Assembly (NCBI GenBank): GCA_964489885.1
Contig: CAZAZX010000003.1
Location: forward strand, 29,036 to 93,035
Direction: 5' to 3'
From: an uncultured Lachnospiraceae bacterium
GTDB taxonomy: Bacteria > Bacillota > Clostridia > TANB77 > CAG-508
DNA: 64,000 bases
The notes beneath the pieces were generated by a model. The model was not told where the DNA came from. It saw nothing but the letters and a program-made list of their open reading frames with translations, and searched no databases. Positions 2,315-35,247 of the stretch are shown one piece after another. The number at the start of each line of letters is the position of its first letter. The first letter of the stretch is position 1. The position numbers were made by a program, and so were the translations under genes.

Positions 2315-2848
2315 TTATATTAATTCAAGTATTGCAACTTCTGCTCCGTCTCCTCTACGTTGACCTACTTTGTATATTCTTGAATATCCACCAACTCTAC
2401 CATCGTATTTTGGTGCTATTTCGTTAAATAATTTTGAAGGAATATCAATGTTTACTCCATCAGAATCCTTAACTTTATTAACTTTAGTCATAATCTTTCT
2501 TCTAGCATTTAGTCTAGAAGGTTTATCTTTTTGTCTAGACTCTGTTGTTTCTTCTTTTACAACTTTAAGAAATTCATTTCCGTTTTTGCTTTTTGTTAAT
2601 TCTGTAACTTTATTTCCATTGCTATCTAATTTAGCCTTAACAACTTTAACATCAACCATTTCAAAATTGTCTTTTTCTTTAATTGCTAAAGCAATAATAG
2701 AATCAGCTATAGCTTTAACTTCTTTAGCTCTAGCTTCTGTTGTTACTATTTTCCCATGTAATAGTAGATCTGTTGTTTGGCTTTTTAGCATTGCTATTCT
2801 TTGGTCAGTTTTCTTACCAAGTTTTCTATTTTTAGCCACAATTTTCAC
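2315..2848 (-). CDS. rplQ: 50S ribosomal protein L17 (bL17), 177 aa, with a ~55-aa internal insertion
   Basis: The N-terminal ~60 aa and C-terminal ~55 aa ([25 protein letters not shown]) match L17. The lysine-rich middle segment has no counterpart in ~120-aa L17 proteins. Confidence 0.85.
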
Positions 2849-3881: not shown

Positions 3882-4508
3882 CTATTTAGAATATAATTCA
3901 ACTATTAAGTGCTCTTCAACTGGAATATCTACATCTTCTCTAGATGCTAAACGAATTACTTTTCCAGTCATTTTTTCATTGTCTTTTTCTAACCATGTTG
4001 GAACTGGTCTTGAATTGTTTTGTTCAACATTTGCTTTTATTGTTTTATTATCTTTTCTAATCTCTCTAACAGCTATAACATCCCCTGCTTTAACTAAATA
4101 TGAAGGGATGTTAACTTTTTTTCCATTTACCTCAAAATGTCCATGATTAACAAGTTGTCTTGCTTGAGCTCTAGATGTTCCAAAGCCTAAACGATAAACA
4201 ACATTATCTAATCTACTTTCTAATATTGTTAATAACTCTTCACCTGTAACTCCTTTTTTATTAGAAGCCATTTCGAAATATTTTCTAAATTGCTTTTCTT
4301 GCACTCCATAGAATGCTTTTGTTTTTTGTTTTTCTCTTAATTGTGTACCGTATTCAGAAAGTTTTTTTCTTTTTTGTCCATGTTGACCTGGTGCATAATT
4401 TCTTCTTGTTATACTACATTTATCTGTGTAGCATCTTTCACCTTTTAAGAACAATTTTTGTCCTTCTCTACGGCAAATACGGCATTGTTCATCTTTATAT
4501 CTTGCCAT
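3882..4508 (-). CDS. rpsD: 30S ribosomal protein S4 (uS4), zinc-binding form, 208 aa
   Basis: [16 protein letters not shown]...ERCYTDKC: an S4 N-terminus carrying a Cys4 cluster. Confidence 0.95.
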
Positions 4509-5528: not shown

Positions 5529-5642
5529 CTAACCTTGTCTTTGTTTGTGTTTAGGATTTTCACAAATAACCCTTATAACACCTTTTCTTTTAATTACTTT
5601 ACATTTGTCGCACATCTTTTTTACTGATGGTCTTACTTTCAT
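5529..5642 (-). CDS. rpmJ: 50S ribosomal protein L36 (bL36), zinc-ribbon form, 37 aa
   Basis: Hand translation of the minus strand gives [37 protein letters not shown] (C-x2-C...C-x4-H). It lies between infA and rpsM as expected and falls below the ORF-track length cut-off. Confidence 0.88.
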
Positions 5643-6824: not shown

Positions 6825-7475
6825 TTATTTTAAATGTTCCATTGCTGTATTTACTAATTCATCTATTGATGTATTTTCATCTGAATGTAAATTATATAAT
6901 ACACCTGCATTTTCAAAATATTTTAAAAGTGGTTTTGTTGATTTATAATATGTTTTGAACCTATCTTGAACTGTTTTTTCGTTGTCATCGGAGCGTTGTA
7001 TTAAATCAGTTCCACATTTATCGCACTTTCCTTCAACTTTTGGTTTATGTCCATATTTTAAATTATAAATTGATTTACAATTTGGACAAATTCTTCTATT
7101 TACAATCCTATCTACAATTAGCTTTTCTGAAACATCTATATTTATAGCTATTCCAACATTTAAATTTAAACTCTCTAACAATTTATCTAAATGCTTTGCC
7201 TGAGACTGTGTTCGTGGATAGCCATCTAGTATAATTCCCTTATTTAAATTGTGTTTTATCAACTCGTCTTCAAATGTTTTCATTGCTAGTTCATCTGGAA
7301 TTAGTTCTCCTTTATTTATCCATTCTTTAATTTGCTTGCCAATTTCAGTTTCTTCTTTAGCCAATCCTCTGAATATATCGCCAATTGCTAAATATGTTAT
7401 ATCTAAATTTTCTGCAAGTCTTTTTCCAATTGTGCCCTTGCCTGCTCCAGGGGCACCTAACATAACTATAATCAA
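6825..7475 (-). CDS. adk: Adenylate kinase with a zinc-binding lid, 216 aa
   Basis: P-loop GAPGAGKGT and a lid with CPNC...CDKCG. Confidence 0.95.
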   Translation of the reverse strand: MIIVMLGAPGAGKGTIGKRLAENLDITYLAIGDIFRGLAKEETEIGKQIKEWINKGELIPDELAMKTFEDELIKHNLNKGIILDGYPRTQSQAKHLDKLLESLNLNVGIAINIDVSEKLIVDRIVNRRICPNCKSIYNLKYGHKPKVEGKCDKCGTDLIQRSDDNEKTVQDRFKTYYKSTKPLLKYFENAGVLYNLHSDENTSIDELVNTAMEHLK

Positions 7476-7609: not shown

Positions 7610-8932
7610 TTAATCTAAGAATCCTTTATAGTGTCTCATAACCAATTGTGATTCCAATTGTAGAATCATTTCCATAGCAACACCAACTACAATTAGGATT
7701 GTAGTACCACCAAATGTGATATTGAAATCTGTAAACCTTAAAAGCATTGGCAATATTGCAATAAGTGCTAAGAATACTGAGCCAAATGCAGTTAACTTTT
7801 TCATTATTGAAGATAAGTAATCTGTAGTTGGCTTTCCAGCCCTTATTCCTGGAATAAATCCACCATTTTTCTTAATATTGCTTGATACTTCTGCTGGATT
7901 AAATGTAGCAAATGTATAGAAGAATGTAAATCCAACAATTAATAGCAAGTATACAAGTGCATTAATTAATGTATATGATAATGGCACACCTTGTGATGTT
8001 GATGTAGCCATTGAGAACTTATACACTCCAGCCCAGAATCCTGTTTGTTCAGCAATATGAGGATTAAAAATTTGTATAAACATTGCTGGAAATGTCATAA
8101 ATGCTGAAGCAAAGATTATAGGCATAACACCTGCCATTGCTAGTTTTAATGGAATATGTGTACTTTGTCCACCATACATCTTTCTTCCAACAACTTTTTT
8201 AGAATACTGTACTGGTATCCTTCTTTCAGATTGTGTTACAAATATAACTGCTGCAATTAAAATAATTGCACCTATTATTAATGCAATAACTGTAATTAGT
8301 CCAGTTGCACTAAATCCATTATCCAAAACTAATCCATAAGCTGTACTTATAAATCCTGGTAACCCTGATAAAATACCTATGAAAATTAACATAGATATAC
8401 CATTTCCAAGACCTTGTCGAGTAATTTGTTCACCAAGCCACATTAAAAATGCTGTTCCAGCTACAAATGACATTACAACAAGTAAACCTGTAAAGAAACC
8501 TGGATTTATAAATATACCGCTATGTTGATATGCAGCATATATACCGATTCCTTCAACTAATGATAAAGCAATAGAAAGCAATTTTGTATATTTATTTACT
8601 TTAGCTTTACCATCTTCTCCTCCTTCTTTCATCATTTTTTCTAAAGAAGGAATTATAAATCCTAATAATTGAATAACAATTGATGCTGTAATATATGGCC
8701 CAATTGACATTGCAAATATTGAAAATCTAGAAAAAGCACCACCAGATAGAATATCTATTACACCTGTAACACCATTAGCTTGTGAAGACATTTGTTCATT
8801 TAATTCAATAGTATCTACAGCTGGTACTGTTATAAAACAACCTAATCTAAAAACAACTATTAGAATTAAAACATATAAAAGTTTTTTTCTAATGTCAGCT
8901 GTTTTTATTGCGCTCCATAATGTTTTAAACAT
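7610..8932 (-). CDS. secY: Preprotein translocase subunit SecY, 440 aa
   Basis: Ten-TM SecY sequence at the conserved position after rplO. Confidence 0.95.
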   Translation of the reverse strand: MFKTLWSAIKTADIRKKLLYVLILIVVFRLGCFITVPAVDTIELNEQMSSQANGVTGVIDILSGGAFSRFSIFAMSIGPYITASIVIQLLGFIIPSLEKMMKEGGEDGKAKVNKYTKLLSIALSLVEGIGIYAAYQHSGIFINPGFFTGLLVVMSFVAGTAFLMWLGEQITRQGLGNGISMLIFIGILSGLPGFISTAYGLVLDNGFSATGLITVIALIIGAIILIAAVIFVTQSERRIPVQYSKKVVGRKMYGGQSTHIPLKLAMAGVMPIIFASAFMTFPAMFIQIFNPHIAEQTGFWAGVYKFSMATSTSQGVPLSYTLINALVYLLLIVGFTFFYTFATFNPAEVSSNIKKNGGFIPGIRAGKPTTDYLSSIMKKLTAFGSVFLALIAILPMLLRFTDFNITFGGTTILIVVGVAMEMILQLESQLVMRHYKGFLD

Positions 8933-9366
8933 TAAATCACCTCTGTCTTTCCACCAAGAGCTTCAATTTTTTCTTTGGCAGATTTAGTAAAACGTATAGC
9001 TGATACATTTAATTTTTTCTCTAAGTTACCTGTGCCTAACACAACAATTCCATCATTAACTTTAGATATAATTCCATCTTTTAATAATGTTTCTGCATTT
9101 ACTTCTGTTTGTGTTGATTTGTTAAGCATAGTTAATGTAACTTCTGTATAATTTTTTGCATGGATATTTGTGAATCCTCTTTTAGGTAATCTTCTATATA
9201 AAGGTGTTTGTCCTCCTTCAAATCCACGTCTTGTTCCTCCTCCAGATCTAGCTTTTTGTCCCTTATGACCTTTTCCAGAAGTTTTTCCAAGACCTGAACC
9301 TACACCGCGTCCCACTCTTCTTCTTGTTTGCTTTTCAACTGCTGGTTTTAATTCACCTAATTTCAT
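8932..9366 (-). CDS. rplO: 50S ribosomal protein L15 (uL15), 144 aa
   Basis: Gly/Arg-rich L15 N-terminus; its stop overlaps the secY start. Confidence 0.93.
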
Positions 9367-9416
9367 TTAAAACTTGCACCTCCTATTTGTTTTGTTAAAT
9401 TTCTACTGTAGTTTTA

Positions 9417-9905
9417 TTATATAATATCTTCTACTTTTTTTCCTCTTTTTTTAGCAATTTCTTCAACTGTTTTCATATTTTTAAGAGCATCTAATGTAGC
9501 ATAAACTACATTTCTTGGGTTATTTGTTCCAATAACCTTTGTTTTTATATCACGGTAACCAGCAAGTTCAAGAACTGGTCTAACGCTTCCGCCTGCAATA
9601 AGTCCACTACCTTTTTCAGCAGGTTTTAATAATACGTTTGCACTACCGAATTTTCCTATATACTCATGTGGGATTGTTCCATCAACGATAGGAACTTTAA
9701 CTAAATTTTTCTTTGCATCTTCAATTCCCTTTTTTATTGCATCAGGAACTTCGGCTGCTTTTCCATTTCCCACACCAATGTTACCTTTTTCGTCACCAAC
9801 AACTATTAAAGCGCTAAATCTAAATGTTCTACCGCCTTTAACAACTTTAGCAACTCTATTTATAGCAACTACTTTTTCTTTTAATTCTAGTGAATTATCT
9901 TCCAT
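9417..9905 (-). CDS. rpsE: 30S ribosomal protein S5 (uS5), 162 aa
   Basis: Conserved S5 sequence. Confidence 0.95.
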
Positions 9906-11320: not shown

Positions 11321-11506
11321 TTACCAACTTGCTTTCTTTACTCCTGGTATTTCGCCTTTATGTGCTAATTCTCTAAAACATATACGGCAAATTCCATATT
11401 TTCTAATGTAAGCATGTGGTCTTCCGCATATTTTACAACGGTTATAATATCTTGTTTGATATTTTGGTGTCTTTAGTTGTTTTACCTTCAATGATTTTTT
11501 AGCCAT
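11321..11506 (-). CDS. rpsN: 30S ribosomal protein S14 type Z (zinc-binding), 61 aa
   Basis: Short S14 with [23 protein letters not shown] (C-x2-C...C-x2-C). Confidence 0.93.
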
Positions 11507-11550: not shown

Positions 11551-12090
11551 CTATTTTTTAAATGGCATACCTAATAGAGTAAGTAATTCTTTTGCCTCTT
11601 CGTCTGTTTTAGCAGTTGTAACAAATATAATATCCATTCCTCTAACTTTATCAATTTTATCGTATTCTATTTCAGGGAATATTAATTGTTCTTTAACTCC
11701 CATTGAATAGTTTCCTCTTCCATCAAAAGAATTGCTTGATAGTCCTCTAAAGTCTCTAACTCTTGGAAGTGCTACATTAAATAATTTGTAAGCAAAATCA
11801 TACATTTTTCCACTTCTAAGTGTTACTTTACAGCCTACATTTGCACCTTCTCTTAATTTAAAAGCTGCAATTGATTTTTTAGCCTTTGTAACAACTGGCT
11901 TTTGGCCTGTTATTTGGCTTAAATCATTCATTGCATTATCTAAAGATTTAGGATTATCTCTTACATCTCCTAATCCGATATTAATTACTATTTTTTCAAG
12001 TTTTGGTACTTGCATTATTGATTTGTAATTAAATTTTTTCATTAATGCTGGTACTACTTCTTTTTGATATTGTTCTTTTAATATTTCCAT
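11551..12090 (-). CDS. rplE: 50S ribosomal protein L5 (uL5), 179 aa
   Basis: Conserved L5 sequence. Confidence 0.95.
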
Positions 12091-12110: not shown

Positions 12111-12419
12111 CTATTTTATTTTTGCACCACACTTTTTGCATACACGAACTTTCTCATCTTTTTCAATTGTGTATCCAATTCTTGTTGGTTTCTTACATTT
12201 AGGGCATACTACGTTAACTTTGCAAGCATTTATTGCACATTCTTCACTAAGAATTCCGCCTTCTTCGCCTTTTTTTCTTGGCTTAACATGCTTTTTTCTA
12301 ACATTAATACCTTTTGCAATGATTTTTCCATCTTTAGGCATAACTTCAATAACTTCTCCTGTTTTACCTTTATCATTACCAGATAAAACTTGAATTGTAT
12401 CGCCTTTTTTTATGTTCAT
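12111..12419 (-). CDS. rplX: 50S ribosomal protein L24 (uL24), 102 aa, with a C-terminal CxxC...CxxC pair
   Basis: KOW N-terminus (KGDTIQVLSGNDKGKTGEV) of normal L24 length. The C-terminal third carries Cys at residues 61, 66, 72, 75, 94 and 97 (CPKC...CKKC). Confidence 0.9.
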   Translation of the reverse strand: MNIKKGDTIQVLSGNDKGKTGEVIEVMPKDGKIIAKGINVRKKHVKPRKKGEEGGILSEECAINACKVNVVCPKCKKPTRIGYTIEKDEKVRVCKKCGAKIK

Positions 12420-12473
12420 TTAGGATTCTCCTCCTTCTTTTAACTTTTATTTGTTTATATAATACACATTTAA

Positions 12474-12842
12474 TTATAAAACTTCTGGAGCAAGTGAAAG
12501 AATTTTCATATAATTCTTTTCTCTTAATTCTCTTGCTACTGGGCCAAATATACGTGTTCCTCTTGGATTACCATCATCACGTATAATAACTGCTGCATTT
12601 TCATCAAATTTTACATAAGAACCATCTGGTCTTCTAGCACCTTTTTTTGTTCTAACTACAACAGCTTTAACAACTTCGCCCTTTTTTACAACGCCACCAG
12701 GTGTAGCATCTTTGACAGAAGCAACTACTAAGTCACCGATACCTGCATATTTTCTATGTGAACCACCTAAACATCTAATACACATAATCTCTTTAGCTCC
12801 AGTATTATCAGCAACTTTCAATATTGATTGTTGTTGTACCAT
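12474..12842 (-). CDS. rplN: 50S ribosomal protein L14 (uL14), 122 aa
   Basis: Conserved L14 sequence. Confidence 0.95.
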
Positions 12843-16135: not shown

Positions 16136-16483
16136 CTAAACTCCTGTAAATTCATCGATTCCTTCTTTATATTTATTTGATACTTTAACTTCTTTTCCGC
16201 CTTTTCCTAAATATTTTCCATCTTGTGGTTGAGTATCAACAAATACTATTGCTTTTTTCCAGTCTGAAGTTCTACCTACATGAACTCCAACCCTCTTTGT
16301 TTTTCCATTCATATTAATTGTATTAACTTTTAATACCTTAACATTGAATAGCTTTTCAACAGCTGATGCTATTTGAATTTTTGTAGCATTTTTAGCTACC
16401 TTAAAGGTATACTTTCCTTCTTCTAAAGCTGCATTGCTTTTTTCTGTAACTATAGGTTTAATAATTATATCTTCTGGTCTCAT
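16136..16483 (-). CDS. rplW: 50S ribosomal protein L23 (uL23), 115 aa, with a ~20-aa C-terminal extension
   Basis: L23 core ([10 protein letters not shown]...KKAIV) plus an extra lysine-rich tail. Confidence 0.9.
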
Positions 16484-18492: not shown

Positions 18493-18810
18493 TCACAGCA
18501 GAAAGTGGTTTTTTGCAGTTATTTTTATTACCGGTGTTGGCTTAAAAGACATATCGAACGTCATCAGTTCAATTGATGTTACAAAGTCACACTTTTTTGG
18601 TACACACACCACATAATCTGCAACCACTTTTTCTGACAAGTCTTTCCAATCTTTTTCCTTTGCAATGAGTTCATCGAACTTTTTATCAAGACCGTTTTTT
18701 TTGCAAAAATTTATTATTCTTTCTTTGCTTTCCATTTCACTTTCTTGATTTTCACTGTAAAGAAAATTCTTTCCATCTCTAATGAAATCCTCTAGTTTTT
18801 TGTCCTTCAT
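18493..18810 (-). CDS. Hypothetical protein, 105 aa
   Basis: ORF between clpX and the S10 cluster with no recognisable motifs; a terminator follows it. Confidence 0.4.
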   Translation of the reverse strand: MKDKKLEDFIRDGKNFLYSENQESEMESKERIINFCKKNGLDKKFDELIAKEKDWKDLSEKVVADYVVCVPKKCDFVTSIELMTFDMSFKPTPVIKITAKNHFLL

Positions 18811-18897: not shown

Positions 18898-20181
18898 CTA
18901 CGAAGCATTTTCCTTTTTAGCTACTTTACTTTTTATTTTTTGTTCATTGTTATCAGCAAAAATTAATTTAGGTGCTTCATTATTTTCAACAGTCTCACGT
19001 GTAATTATGCATTTTTCAATATTTGGATTTGAAGGAATATCAAACATTACATCCCTCATTATATCTTCAACAATTGAGCGTAAACCTCTGGCACCCGTAT
19101 TTCTTTCAATAGCTTTGTTTACTATAGCCTCTAATGCATTATCGTCGAATTCTAATTCGACATCATCTAATTCAACTAATTTTTTATATTGTTTCATTAA
19201 CGAATTTTTAGGTTCTGTAAATATTTTTATTAATGCATCTTTATCTAATTCATGTAATGTTGCAATAATTGGTAATCTTCCAACAAATTCTGGTATTAAT
19301 CCAAATTTTAATAAGTCTTGAGGTAGCATTTCACTAAATACCTCATAACGTTTTAACTCTTTAATGCTTTCAACATTTGCACCAAATCCAATTGTCTTTT
19401 TACCTATTCTATCTTTTATTATATTTTCAAGCCCTTCGAAAGCTCCACCACATATAAATAAAATATTTTCAGTGTTTATTTGTATAAATTCTTGATGTGG
19501 ATGTTTTCTTCCACCTTGTGGCGGAACTGATGCTACTGTACCTTCAACAATTTTTAATAAAGCTTGTTGAACACCTTCTCCACTAACATCTCTTGTAATA
19601 GAAGGATTTTCAGATTTTCTAGAAATTTTATCAATTTCATCTATATATATAATTCCTTTTTCTGCTTTTTGAACATCAAAATCCGCAGCTTGAATCAATT
19701 TTAGTAATATGTTTTCAACATCTTCCCCAACATAACCTGCTTCTGTTAATGTTGTCGCATCCGCTATTGCAAATGGAACATTCAAAACTTTCGCAAGTGT
19801 TTGAGCTAACAATGTTTTTCCAGAACCAGTTGGACCTAATAAAAGAATATTACTTTTCTGTATTTCTACATCACTAATTTCCTTCATACTATTTATTCTT
19901 TTATAATGATTATATACAGCTACAGCTAATGTTTTTTTTGCATCTTCTTGACCTATTACGTATTCATCTAAAACCTTTTTTATTTCTTTAGGTGTTGGAA
20001 TTTTATCATTTTTTGTTTCATATTCTGTTTCATCATCATAGTTTTCGTCTTCTAAAATATTGCCACAAACCTTTATACATTCATCACAAATATATACCCC
20101 TGGTCCTGCAACAATTTTTTTTACATTTTCCTGTGTCTTACCACAGAAAGAACATCTTATTGTTTTATCATTTTTTGGCAT
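18898..20181 (-). CDS. clpX: ATP-dependent Clp protease ATP-binding subunit ClpX, 427 aa
   Basis: N-terminal zinc-binding domain (CSFCGK...CDEC), Walker A GPTGSGKT, and AAA+ core. Confidence 0.95.
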
Positions 20182-26278: not shown

Positions 26279-27136
26279 TTATTTCTCCCATTTTCCAAAT
26301 ATTCCAGATGGTAGTACCAATTTTGATTTTTTCATTGGTAACCCTATTTCACCACAACTTATTTTTCCTTTATGTTTTATATTTAATTCTAAAATGTTTG
26401 ATAACACCTGTGATGAAATACCTGTTGTATATGAATTTATTAAGAAAAATAAAGGATTATCAGAAAGAACTTTTGTGCACAAATTAACTAAATCTGCAAT
26501 GTTATTCTCAAATTGCCACACTTCCCCCTTTGCTCCTCTTCCATAGGAAGGAGGGTCCATTATAATAGCATCATATTTCTTTCCTCTTCTTATTTCTCTT
26601 TCAACAAACTTAACAACATCATCTATAATAAAACGAACTGGCTTATCTTTTAATTTAGATGAAATAACGTTTTCTTTTGCCCAATTGACCATACCTTTTG
26701 ACGAATCAACATGACAAACAGAAGCTCCAGCATGAAGACAGGCAACTGTGGCACCACCTGTATATGCAAATAAATTTAATACATTAATTTGTCTATCAGC
26801 TTCTCCTATTTTTTTCTCCATCCAATCCCAATTAACAGCCTGTTCTGGAAAAAGCCCTGTATGTTTGAATCCCATAGGTTTTATATTAAAAGTTAATTCT
26901 CCATATTTAATTTGCCAATTTTGTGGCAATTTTCTATTATATGTCCAACTTCCACCACCAGTTTTACTCCTATTATAAATGGCATCTGCTTTCTTCCACT
27001 CAGACGGAAAACTTTTATTTTTCCATATAATTTGTGGATCAGGTCTAATTAATTTAATGTTACCCCATTTTTCCAGTTTTTCTCCATTTGCCATATCTAT
27101 TATTTCATAATCTTTCCATTTATTTGCTAGGTTCAT
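26279..27136 (-). CDS. Class I SAM-dependent methyltransferase (RlmI/YwbD-like, probable rRNA methyltransferase), 285 aa
   Basis: Motif I FAYTGGAT and the DPPSYG motif characteristic of RlmI/RlmK-type m5C/m2G methyltransferases. Confidence 0.7.
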   Translation of the reverse strand: MNLANKWKDYEIIDMANGEKLEKWGNIKLIRPDPQIIWKNKSFPSEWKKADAIYNRSKTGGGSWTYNRKLPQNWQIKYGELTFNIKPMGFKHTGLFPEQAVNWDWMEKKIGEADRQINVLNLFAYTGGATVACLHAGASVCHVDSSKGMVNWAKENVISSKLKDKPVRFIIDDVVKFVEREIRRGKKYDAIIMDPPSYGRGAKGEVWQFENNIADLVNLCTKVLSDNPLFFLINSYTTGISSQVLSNILELNIKHKGKISCGEIGLPMKKSKLVLPSGIFGKWEK

Positions 27137-33568: not shown

Positions 33569-33584
33569 AACTGTAATTTATGAA

Positions 33585-33900
33585 ACAACATTGAAAGAGA
33601 CTATATTAAATTTCTTTTTTATAGAGAGTTTATGTTTGGTGGAAATAAACAAAAAGGGTTTAAGAATCTACTCTGGAGTTTTTAGTGAAAGCTAAACCGC
33701 TAATACTGGTTATCGTATTTTAGAGTATAATAAAAGGTGGTACCACGTATATAGACGTCCTTTAGCATTTTGCTATTGGACGTTTTATTATGAAACCACA
33801 AGTTGAGTCTAGTTCTTATTGCGAAAGCAACAAGGTTCAGGGGTACCCACCCACGACTTTGCCGTGTTGGTGGGGCGGGTTCTTATCTATCTTTATTCTT
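33585..33900 (+). promoter_or_regulatory. T-box riboswitch leader (serine specifier) controlling serS
   Basis: Conserved T-box sequence AAAAGGTGGTACCACG at 33732-33747. Terminator helix CCCACC...GGTGGG plus a T-run at about 33847-33900 could alternatively pair with the T-box. Candidate specifier GAA-UCU-A at about 33690; AGAGA-like motif upstream. Confidence 0.7.
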
Positions 33901-33957
33901 TAGTTTATAATTGACCTAACTGGTCATAAATATATTTTTTAGAAAGGGTTGATTAAT

Positions 33958-35247
33958 ATGTTAGATATTAAATTTTTAAGAGAAAATCCAGAACTTGTAA
34001 AGGAAAACATAAGGAAAAAATTTCAAAACCATAAATTGGTATTGGTTGATGAAGTTATCGATTTAGATGAAAAGTATAGAAAGGCTAAATCTTCTGGAGA
34101 TGACTTAAGAGCAGAGCGTAAATCTTTAAGTTCTGAAATTGGAAATTTAATGCGTCAAGGTAAGAAAGATGAAGCTGAAAAAGTAAAAGCTAAAGTTCAA
34201 GAAATTAACAATAAACTTGAAGAAAATGAAAAACTTGAAAATGAATATTCTGAAGAAGTAAAAATAAGAATGATGAAAATTCCTAATATGATGGATCCTT
34301 CTGTTCCTATTGGTGAAGACGACTCTAAAAATGTTGAAGTTCAAAGATATGGCGAGCCAAAGGTTCCTGACTATGAAATTCCCTTCCATGGTGAAATTCT
34401 AGAAGCCTTAAATGGAGTTGATTTTGATGCTGCCCGTCGTGTTGCTGGGAATGGTTTTTATTATTTAATGGGTGACATTGCAAGACTTCATTCTGCTTGT
34501 CTAACTTATGCTAGAGATTTTATGATTAACAAGGGATTTACATATTGTATTCCTCCATTTATGATTCGTTCAGACGTTGTTACTGGTGTTATGAGCTTCG
34601 AAGAAATGGATGCTATGATGTACAAAATTGAAGATGAAGATTTATATTTAATTGGCACTAGCGAACACTCTATGATTGGTAAATTCAAAGACCAAATTTT
34701 AAGAAAAGAAGATTTACCTTATACTATGACTTCTTATTCTCCTTGCTTTAGAAAAGAAAAGGGAGCTCATGGTATTGAAGAACGTGGTATTTATCGTATC
34801 CATCAATTTGAAAAACAAGAAATGATTGTTATTTGCGAACCTGAAGATAGTAAAAAATGGTATGATAAAATGTGGTCTTATACTGTTGAACTTTTTAGAA
34901 GCATGAATATTCCTGTTCGTACTTTGGAATGTTGCAGTGGAGACTTAGCTGACTTAAAATCAAAAAGTGTTGATGTTGAAGCATGGAGCCCTAGACAAAA
35001 GAAATATTTTGAAGTTGGCAGTTGCTCTAATTTAACTGATGCTCAATCTAGAAGATTAGGAATACGTATTAAAGGTGAAAATGAAAATTATTTTGCTCAT
35101 ACTCTAAATAATACTGTTATTGCCCCACCTCGTATGTTGATTGCTATTTTAGAAAACAATTATCAACCTGATGGAAGTGTAATTGTTCCTGAAGTTTTAA
35201 GACCTTATATGGGTGGACTCGAAAAAATTGAAATAAAGAAAAAATAG
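33958..35247 (+). CDS. serS: Seryl-tRNA synthetase, ~429 aa
   Basis: N-terminal coiled-coil arm and class II core motifs. The start is taken at the ATG 9 nt after the AGAAAGGG SD; the listed ORF begins 3 codons earlier at a TTG. Confidence 0.95.
   Translation: MLDIKFLRENPELVKENIRKKFQNHKLVLVDEVIDLDEKYRKAKSSGDDLRAERKSLSSEIGNLMRQGKKDEAEKVKAKVQEINNKLEENEKLENEYSEEVKIRMMKIPNMMDPSVPIGEDDSKNVEVQRYGEPKVPDYEIPFHGEILEALNGVDFDAARRVAGNGFYYLMGDIARLHSACLTYARDFMINKGFTYCIPPFMIRSDVVTGVMSFEEMDAMMYKIEDEDLYLIGTSEHSMIGKFKDQILRKEDLPYTMTSYSPCFRKEKGAHGIEERGIYRIHQFEKQEMIVICEPEDSKKWYDKMWSYTVELFRSMNIPVRTLECCSGDLADLKSKSVDVEAWSPRQKKYFEVGSCSNLTDAQSRRLGIRIKGENENYFAHTLNNTVIAPPRMLIAILENNYQPDGSVIVPEVLRPYMGGLEKIEIKKK

What the first reader, a model, noticed from the sequence alone, without database searches (positions are those of the whole stretch)
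12111..12419. Ribosomal protein uL24 with a C-terminal CxxC...CxxC zinc-ribbon-like cluster
The L24 here is of normal length and has a KOW N-terminus. Its C-terminal third reads ...SEECAINACKVNVVCPKCKKPTRIGYTIEKDEKVRVCKKCGAKIK, with Cys at positions 61, 66, 72, 75, 94 and 97 and two CxxC pairs 18 residues apart. Model Bacillus or E. coli uL24 has no cysteines at the aligned positions ([32 protein letters not shown]).

Bacterial zinc-binding (C+) versus zinc-free (C-) ribosomal-protein forms are classically described for S14, S18, L28, L31, L32, L33 and L36. uL24 is not in that list. This window also has C+ forms of S14, L36 and S4.
Basis: seen in the sequence. Interest (0 to 1): 0.5.

Follow-up and report, generated by a model that had tools for sequence, protein, structure and literature searches.

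The report
Known zinc-binding form of uL24
The ribosomal protein uL24 encoded here does carry a strictly conserved four-cysteine, zinc-ribbon-type site, but this "C+" form of uL24 is already known from Thermus thermophilus ribosome structures and a 2023 survey, so it is an ordinary feature.

Summary
Window 12111-12419, minus strand, encodes a 102-aa bacterial uL24 with Cys at 61, 66, 72, 75, 94 and 97.

C72/C75 and C94/C97 align one-to-one with the CPAC and CAKC pairs of Thermus thermophilus uL24. A 2023 NAR paper (PMC10450194) describes those pairs as coordinating zinc. The same paper defines C+ and C- isoforms of uL24 by a (CXXC)-(CXXC) pattern across 2021 bacteria. The novelty premise, that uL24 is not among the C+/C- proteins, is therefore outdated.

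The four Cys are invariant in the 120 closest protein clusters and in 80 related species genomes, all uncultured low-GC gut or rumen Clostridia. They also occur in 103 of the 139 best 50%-identity representatives that align across the site, down to 34% identity, including candidate-phyla-radiation bacteria. Cys61 is specific to this clade and Cys66 is sporadic; neither belongs to the general site.

An AlphaFold model superposes equally well on C- and C+ uL24 structures (TM about 0.86-0.89).

No second uL24 lies in the window. The rest of the genome could not be checked.

Verdict: a real, ordinary, already described C+ uL24. Interest is low.

The parts
12111..12419 (-). rplX gene: bacterial ribosomal protein uL24, 102 aa, C+ (four-cysteine) isoform
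   Evidence: ORF and translation. TIGR01079 112.4 bits, PF17136 85.3 bits. An identical protein, P0001, is present in public metagenome assemblies in the same L14-L24-L5-S14 gene order.
12428..12436 (-). Shine-Dalgarno sequence AAGGAGGAG, 8 nt upstream of the ATG
   Evidence: Read directly from the sequence.
12321..12407 (-). KOW motif, residues 5-33
   Evidence: PF00467 KOW, 27.3 bits against a 22.3 cut-off, residues 5-33. Coordinates checked.
12195..12206 (-). First zinc knuckle, CPKC (Cys72, Cys75)
   Evidence: Aligns to C76/C79 (CPAC) of T. thermophilus uL24. Invariant in 120/120 clusters and 86/86 loci. Falls in a loop (72-77) after strand 68-71 in the model.
12129..12140 (-). Second zinc knuckle, CKKC (Cys94, Cys97)
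   Evidence: Aligns to C99/C102 (CAKC) of T. thermophilus uL24. Invariant in 120/120 clusters and 86/86 loci. Lies at the end of the hairpin formed by strands 81-86 and 89-94.
12237..12239 (-). Cys61: clade-specific extra cysteine replacing the usual Ala of the E-A-P-I-H stretch. Not part of the general site.
   Evidence: Cys in 113/120 close clusters but in only 7/103 diverse C+ representatives, and also in 3/36 non-Cys4 representatives. Ala in T. thermophilus.
12222..12224 (-). Cys66: sporadic extra cysteine
   Evidence: Cys in only 3/120 close clusters, otherwise Ser or Ala. Cys in 11/103 C+ and 7/36 non-Cys4 representatives.
11321..11506 (-). Context: uS14, short C+ form (CxxC at 24 and 40)
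   Evidence: PF00253 98.9 bits. Cys positions.
5529..5642 (-). Context: bL36, C+ form (CxxC at 11, a third Cys, and His)
   Evidence: PF00444 72 bits. Sequence, Cys count.
3882..4508 (-). Context: uS4 with N-terminal CxxC...CxxxxC
   Evidence: PF00163 and PF01479. Sequence CRIC...CYTDKC. This matches the uS4 C+ pattern used in PMC10450194.

Best explanation
This is the standard, single-copy rplX gene of the spc ribosomal-protein operon of an uncultured low-GC gut or rumen member of the Clostridia. It encodes the C+ (metal-binding) isoform of uL24.

The N-terminal KOW/SH3-like barrel and the C-terminal beta region have the usual uL24 fold. In the C-terminal region, two knuckles, CPKC (72-75) and CKKC (94-97), flank a beta-hairpin. 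Together they tetrahedrally coordinate one structural metal ion, most likely Zn2+, as in T. thermophilus uL24.

The metal acts as a cross-brace that stabilises the small C-terminal subdomain. It is not catalytic or regulatory. C- uL24 proteins, such as those of Bacillus, Staphylococcus, Listeria and E. coli, keep the same backbone but have D/T and A/S in place of the ligands.

What is shown here: identity as uL24, the exact alignment of the four Cys to the Thermus residues, and their strict conservation. What is inferred: that metal is bound in this organism, and that the metal is zinc.
For: - The protein is uL24, sits in the expected operon position, and has a strong ribosome-binding site.
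- It is 44% identical to T. thermophilus uL24 over 102 residues. C72/C75/C94/C97 fall on C76/C79/C99/C102. The Thermus sequence was verified as the chain present in 267 PDB entries, and the PDB alignment shows [11 protein letters not shown]...RVCAKCGG.
- PMC10450194 states that T. thermophilus uL24 coordinates zinc and uses (CXXC)-(CXXC) as the definition of C+ uL24.
- The four Cys are invariant in 120/120 nearest clusters at 74-100% identity and in 80/80 related species genomes.
- They are present in 103 of the 139 best 50%-identity representatives that align across the site, at 34-73% identity to the query. The spacer is mostly 18-19 residues, and 76 of the 103 have exactly four Cys.
- Sub-threshold Pfam zinc-ribbon matches cover residues 71-101.
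- The AlphaFold model has mean pLDDT 80.8, and its knuckle-hairpin-knuckle secondary structure fits a zinc ribbon.
- Foldseek gives TMq 0.88 and rmsd 2.1 to T. thermophilus uL24 4v8a_AY, and 0.86-0.89 to C- uL24 structures.
- Other proteins in the same window also carry their metal-binding Cys motifs: uS14, bL36, uS4, Adk and ClpX.
Against: - No metal was measured for this protein. Occupancy is inferred only by homology.
- The tools return no coordinates, so Cys-Cys distances in the model could not be measured.
- The organism is a mesophilic anaerobe. The published account ties C+ uL24 mainly to thermophiles, being immutable only at 80 C or above. The stabilisation argument is therefore less compelling here, and the Cys4 site may simply be a retained ancestral state.
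- In an anaerobe, a Cys4 site could carry iron instead of zinc.
Confidence: 0.9

Rival explanations
1. The Cys4 site binds iron, in a rubredoxin-like way or as part of an Fe-S centre, rather than zinc. This could give the ribosome of this strict anaerobe a redox-sensitive element.
For: The organism belongs to gut or rumen anaerobes. PMC10450194 says T. thermophilus uS4 holds an iron-sulfur cluster at a similar Cys4 motif. This uL24 has two extra Cys, and Cys61 is conserved in 113/120 relatives.
Against: The homologous Thermus uL24 site is described as a zinc site. The rubredoxin-like Pfam match is insignificant (E 0.57). Most C+ uL24 have exactly four Cys. Cys61 shows no association with the Cys4 state, and all seven close relatives lacking Cys61 keep the four ligands.
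Confidence: 0.06
2. The C+ uL24 is one half of a Zur-regulated C+/C- paralog pair. It would be replaced by a Cys-free uL24 under zinc starvation, releasing zinc, as with L31, L33, S14 and S18.
For: The logic is established for other r-proteins (PMC10450194 and its references). Only 64 kb of the genome could be examined.
Against: tblastn of uL24 against the whole window finds only the gene itself. The other hits have E above 0.6 and are CxxC motifs in S4 and Adk plus one unexamined hit at 26856-26927. None of the 86 related loci holds a second copy. The gene sits in the constitutive spc operon. To my knowledge, uL24 paralog switching has not been reported.
Confidence: 0.03
3. The cysteines are non-functional relics or a chance composition effect, and no metal is bound.
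For: C- uL24 proteins fold into the same backbone without any metal, so the site is dispensable in principle.
Against: All four Cys are completely invariant across more than 200 relatives whose other positions vary, and across clusters down to 34% identity. The background Cys frequency in this gene block is only 0.78%.
Confidence: 0.01

Closest known systems
Thermus thermophilus uL24 (e.g. PDB 4V8A chain AY, 4Y4Y; C+ isoform)
   Same: Same family and fold (44% identity, TMq 0.88). Both CxxC pairs sit at the same aligned positions, with a spacer of 18 versus 19 residues. It is described as zinc-coordinating (PMC10450194).
   Different: Thermus is a thermophile. Its protein has a 4-residue N-terminal and a short C-terminal extension and no Cys at the positions of Cys61 and Cys66. 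The protein here comes from a mesophilic gut or rumen anaerobe.
C- uL24 of Staphylococcus aureus, Listeria, Bacillus subtilis and E. coli
   Same: Same family, length and backbone (E 3.5e-27 to S. aureus, TMq 0.86-0.89). Same operon position.
   Different: The ligand positions are D, T, A, S instead of C, C, C, C, so there is no metal site.
Classical C+/C- bacterial ribosomal proteins (uS14, bS18, bL28, bL31, bL32, bL33, bL36)
   Same: The same evolutionary pattern: a Cys4 or Cys3His zinc site that is repeatedly lost while the fold is kept. C+ uS14 and bL36 are encoded in the same window.
   Different: For several of those proteins, C- paralogs are expressed under zinc starvation. No uL24 paralog was seen here.
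eL24 (L24e) treble-clef zinc finger of archaea and eukaryotes
   Same: Only the name 'L24' and zinc binding (PMC4999995).
   Different: An unrelated protein family. The weak match to TIGR01080 rplX_A_E (the archaeal/eukaryotic uL24 homologue, itself not eL24) covers only the KOW part and is far below its cut-off. eL24 should not be confused with uL24.

Membership tests
Bacterial uL24 (rplX; TIGR01079 / PF17136 + KOW) | Full-length match to the family HMM above the curated cut-off | tested here: met
   TIGR01079 112.4 bits against 53.7, residues 1-101. PF17136 85.3 bits against 27. KOW 27.3 bits against 22.3.
Bacterial uL24 (rplX; TIGR01079 / PF17136 + KOW) | Position in the spc operon between rplN (uL14) and rplE (uL5) | tested here: met
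   L14 at 12474-12842, L24 at 12111-12419 and L5 at 11551-12090, all on the minus strand. The order is the same on other contigs.
Bacterial uL24 (rplX; TIGR01079 / PF17136 + KOW) | uL24 fold | tested here: met
   AlphaFold model with pLDDT 80.8. All top 50 Foldseek PDB hits are uL24 chains of bacterial or organellar ribosomes, TMq 0.79-0.89.
C+ (metal-binding) isoform of uL24, as defined in PMC10450194 | Sequence pattern (CXXC)-(CXXC) in the C-terminal part | tested here: met
   CPKC at 72-75 and CKKC at 94-97. The definition is quoted.
C+ (metal-binding) isoform of uL24, as defined in PMC10450194 | The four Cys are homologous to the zinc ligands of T. thermophilus uL24 | tested here: met
   Pairwise and PDB alignments place them on C76/C79/C99/C102.
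C+ (metal-binding) isoform of uL24, as defined in PMC10450194 | Conservation of the four Cys among relatives | tested here: met
   120/120 clusters, 86/86 loci, and 103/139 diverse representatives.
C+ (metal-binding) isoform of uL24, as defined in PMC10450194 | Four S-gamma atoms within coordination distance in 3D | not testable with these tools
   Structure prediction returns no coordinates. Only the secondary structure, which fits a knuckle-hairpin-knuckle, and the superposition on the Thermus chain are available.
C+ (metal-binding) isoform of uL24, as defined in PMC10450194 | Metal ion actually bound, and which metal | not testable with these tools
   Needs metal analysis or an experimental structure.
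Zur-controlled C+/C- ribosomal-protein paralog pair | A second, Cys-free paralog in the same genome | tested here: inconclusive
   None in the 64-kb window or in the 86 short related loci.
Zur-controlled C+/C- ribosomal-protein paralog pair | Zur-binding site upstream of the alternative copy | not tested
   There is no alternative copy to examine.

The most novel reading that the evidence does not exclude
In this clade of small-genome, low-GC gut and rumen Clostridia, the additional conserved Cys61 (113/120 relatives) might cooperate with the Cys4 site. With Cys66 in this organism, it could form a redox- or iron-responsive element on the ribosome surface near the exit tunnel. Alternatively, the absolute retention of C+ uL24 in mesophiles could reflect a function other than thermostability, such as assembly or metal buffering.
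Probability: 0.04. Interest if true: 0.4.

Novelty: already known. Interest (0 to 1): 0.1.

Why it matters
It matters little. The result confirms that the classical seven-protein C+/C- list is incomplete and that uL24 belongs on it, but structures of the Thermus ribosome and a 2023 comparative study already established this.

The survey here adds one modest point. C+ uL24 is not confined to thermophiles. It is invariant across a large clade of mesophilic gut and rumen Clostridia. It also occurs in proteins that sources name as Candidatus Paceibacterota and Sungbacteria, which I recognise as candidate-phyla-radiation lineages.

This is relevant to anyone using C+ r-proteins as a "molecular thermometer" or estimating bacterial zinc quotas.

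Tried and rejected
- Plus-strand reading of the coordinates: meaningless, because the gene is on the minus strand.
- Makarova et al. 2001 (PMC56895) could not be read.
- A full-text search for 'L24' plus 'zinc ribbon' found only papers on the unrelated eL24/L24e. A search for 'L24, zinc, Thermus, L36, L32' gave nothing useful.
- The listing of cluster members gave almost no organism names for the close relatives. Taxonomy came from the genome scan instead.
- Model coordinates for measuring Cys-Cys distances are not provided in /data.
- Paralog search: tblastn of uL24 against the window and against all fetched loci found only one copy each.
- The idea that Cys61 and Cys66 extend the site to a six-Cys cluster was rejected as a general feature. 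Cys66 is present in 3/120 relatives. Cys61 is no more frequent in C+ than in non-Cys4 representatives (7/103 versus 3/36).
- The representative search is biased towards C+ forms because the query itself is C+. The figure of 103/139 is a lower bound on diversity, not a frequency estimate.

Full report
**1. The observation**

The plus strand of 12111-12419 translates to nonsense. The gene lies on the minus strand.

- Cys are at 61, 66, 72, 75, 94 and 97. The codons were checked.
- AAGGAGGAG lies 8 nt upstream of the ATG.
- The protein matches TIGR01079 (bacterial rplX) at 112.4 bits against a 53.7 cut-off, PF17136 at 85.3 bits and the KOW motif at 27.3 bits.
- It lies between uL14 and uL5 in a complete S10-spc-alpha ribosomal-protein cluster, all on the minus strand.
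- Several Pfam zinc-ribbon models hit residues 71-101 below threshold.
- Cys makes up only 0.78% of the 35 proteins in this gene block but 5.9% of uL24. Double CxxC pairs occur only in uL24, uS14, Adk and ClpX. uS4, bL36 and uL14 have one CxxC each.

**2. What it is**

The decisive comparison is with Thermus thermophilus uL24. I recalled that sequence and verified it as identical to the chain present in 267 PDB entries.

- BLASTP gives 44% identity over the whole protein. C72/C75 fall on C76/C79 (CPAC) and C94/C97 fall on C99/C102 (CAKC).
- The PDB search shows the same alignment: vcpkckkptrigy.tiekdekvrvckkcga against [30 protein letters not shown].
- Listeria and S. aureus uL24 have D..T and A..S at these positions.
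[quoted passage not shown] It defines the C+ isoform of uL24 by (CXXC)-(CXXC) and reports the C+/C- distribution across 2021 bacteria.

The feature is therefore the already described C+ isoform of uL24.

**3. Conservation and distribution**

- The 120 nearest 90%-identity clusters (74-100% identical) all keep the four Cys. Cys61 is present in 113 of them and Cys66 in 3.
- A scan of GTDB species genomes returned 80 loci. All are uncultured gut or rumen Clostridia MAGs from human, rabbit, chicken, mouse, sheep rumen and deer cecum, and they include Clostridium sp. CAG:273 and a 1.55-Mb complete chromosome. GC of the loci is 28-33%.
- All 80, plus 6 metagenome contigs carrying the identical protein, keep the four Cys.
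- From memory, CAG-273 belongs to the GTDB order TANB77, family CAG-508. I did not verify this.
- Of the best 150 representatives of 50%-identity clusters, 139 align across the site and 103 of those have all four Cys. Their identity to the query is 34-73%, the spacer is mostly 18 or 19 residues, and 76 of the 103 have exactly four Cys.
- Named members include Candidatus Paceibacterota and Candidatus Sungbacteria.
- This sample is biased towards C+ forms because the query itself is C+. It shows that the form is widespread, not how frequent it is.
- Cys61 and Cys66 are no more frequent in C+ than in non-Cys4 representatives. Cys61 is a clade-specific Ala-to-Cys change. Cys66 is sporadic.

**4. 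Structure**

- An AlphaFold2 model built from 29 relatives has mean pLDDT 80.8.
- In the model, strand 68-71 is followed by a loop at 72-77 that holds the first knuckle. A hairpin of strands 81-86 and 89-94 ends at the second knuckle. This is the knuckle-hairpin-knuckle layout of a zinc ribbon.
- Foldseek against the PDB returns only uL24 chains. TMq is 0.86-0.89 to C- proteins (Listeria, S. aureus) and 0.88 (rmsd 2.1) to T. thermophilus 4v8a_AY.
- C+ and C- forms therefore share one backbone. This fits the familiar picture of repeated loss of Zn ligands from an otherwise retained fold.
The argument for a metal site rests on homology to the Thermus site.

**5. Mechanism**

Most likely (0.9), one structural Zn2+ is held tetrahedrally by C72, C75, C94 and C97 and braces the small C-terminal subdomain of uL24 on the 50S surface.

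- Shown: family identity, ligand homology and strict conservation.
- Inferred: metal occupancy and the identity of the metal in this organism.

Rivals:
- Iron instead of zinc in this anaerobe (about 0.06).
- A Zur-type C+/C- paralog switch (about 0.03). No second copy is in the window or the related loci, but the whole genome could not be scanned.
- Non-functional cysteines (about 0.01), which the invariance contradicts.

**6. Comparison with the known, and novelty**

- The protein meets every sequence-level criterion for bacterial uL24 and for the published C+ uL24 class.
- It is unrelated to eL24/L24e, the treble-clef zinc protein that turns up in literature searches for 'L24 zinc'.
That paper could not be fetched.
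- PMC10450194 reports C+ uL24 as immutable only at growth optima of 80 C or above, with mesophilic 'outliers'. Its Supplementary Table S2 gives Firmicutes a mean of 5.6 C+ proteins per species.
- A mesophilic Clostridia lineage with C+ uL24, uS14, bL36 and uS4 fits those numbers.

**Verdict**

The feature is real, functional-looking, ordinary and already known. Interest is 0.1.

Noticed in passing
window 2315-2848 (-): bL17 is 177 aa. The 97-position Pfam L17 profile is spread over residues 20-177, which implies an insertion of roughly 60 residues (lysine- and glutamate-rich) in the middle of the protein.
   Followed up: partly
window 16136-16483 (-): uL23 is 115 aa. The Pfam domain ends at residue 82, leaving a C-terminal extension of about 33 residues (...[31 protein letters not shown]).
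   Followed up: partly
window 9366-9417: There is no rpmD (uL30) gene between uS5 (9417-9905) and uL15 (8932-9366). The gap is only about 50 nt and no minus-strand ORF of 30 aa or more is listed there.
   Followed up: no
window 18493-18810 (-): A 105-aa ORF between the S10 gene and clpX has no Pfam match at E <= 0.001. The S10 operon is directly preceded on the same strand by tig-clpP-clpX rather than by the usual str operon/tuf.
   Followed up: partly
window 33582-33765 (+): A T-box leader (RF00230, 96.1 bits, just above the 93-bit gathering score) lies upstream of the 432-aa ORF at 33949-35247.
   Followed up: no
window 12474-12842 (-): uL14 has a single CxxC (C21, C24, in ...IMCIRCLGG...) and no second pair. 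Probably not a metal site.
   Followed up: no
window 6825-7475 (-) and 18898-20181 (-): Adenylate kinase carries a Cys4 pattern (CxxC at 130 and 151) and ClpX carries an N-terminal Cys4 pattern (CxxC at 10 and 32). From memory, these correspond to the Adk zinc lid and the ClpX N-terminal zinc-binding domain. With uS4, uS14, bL36 and uL24, every Cys-motif protein found in this block carries its Cys motif.
   Followed up: partly
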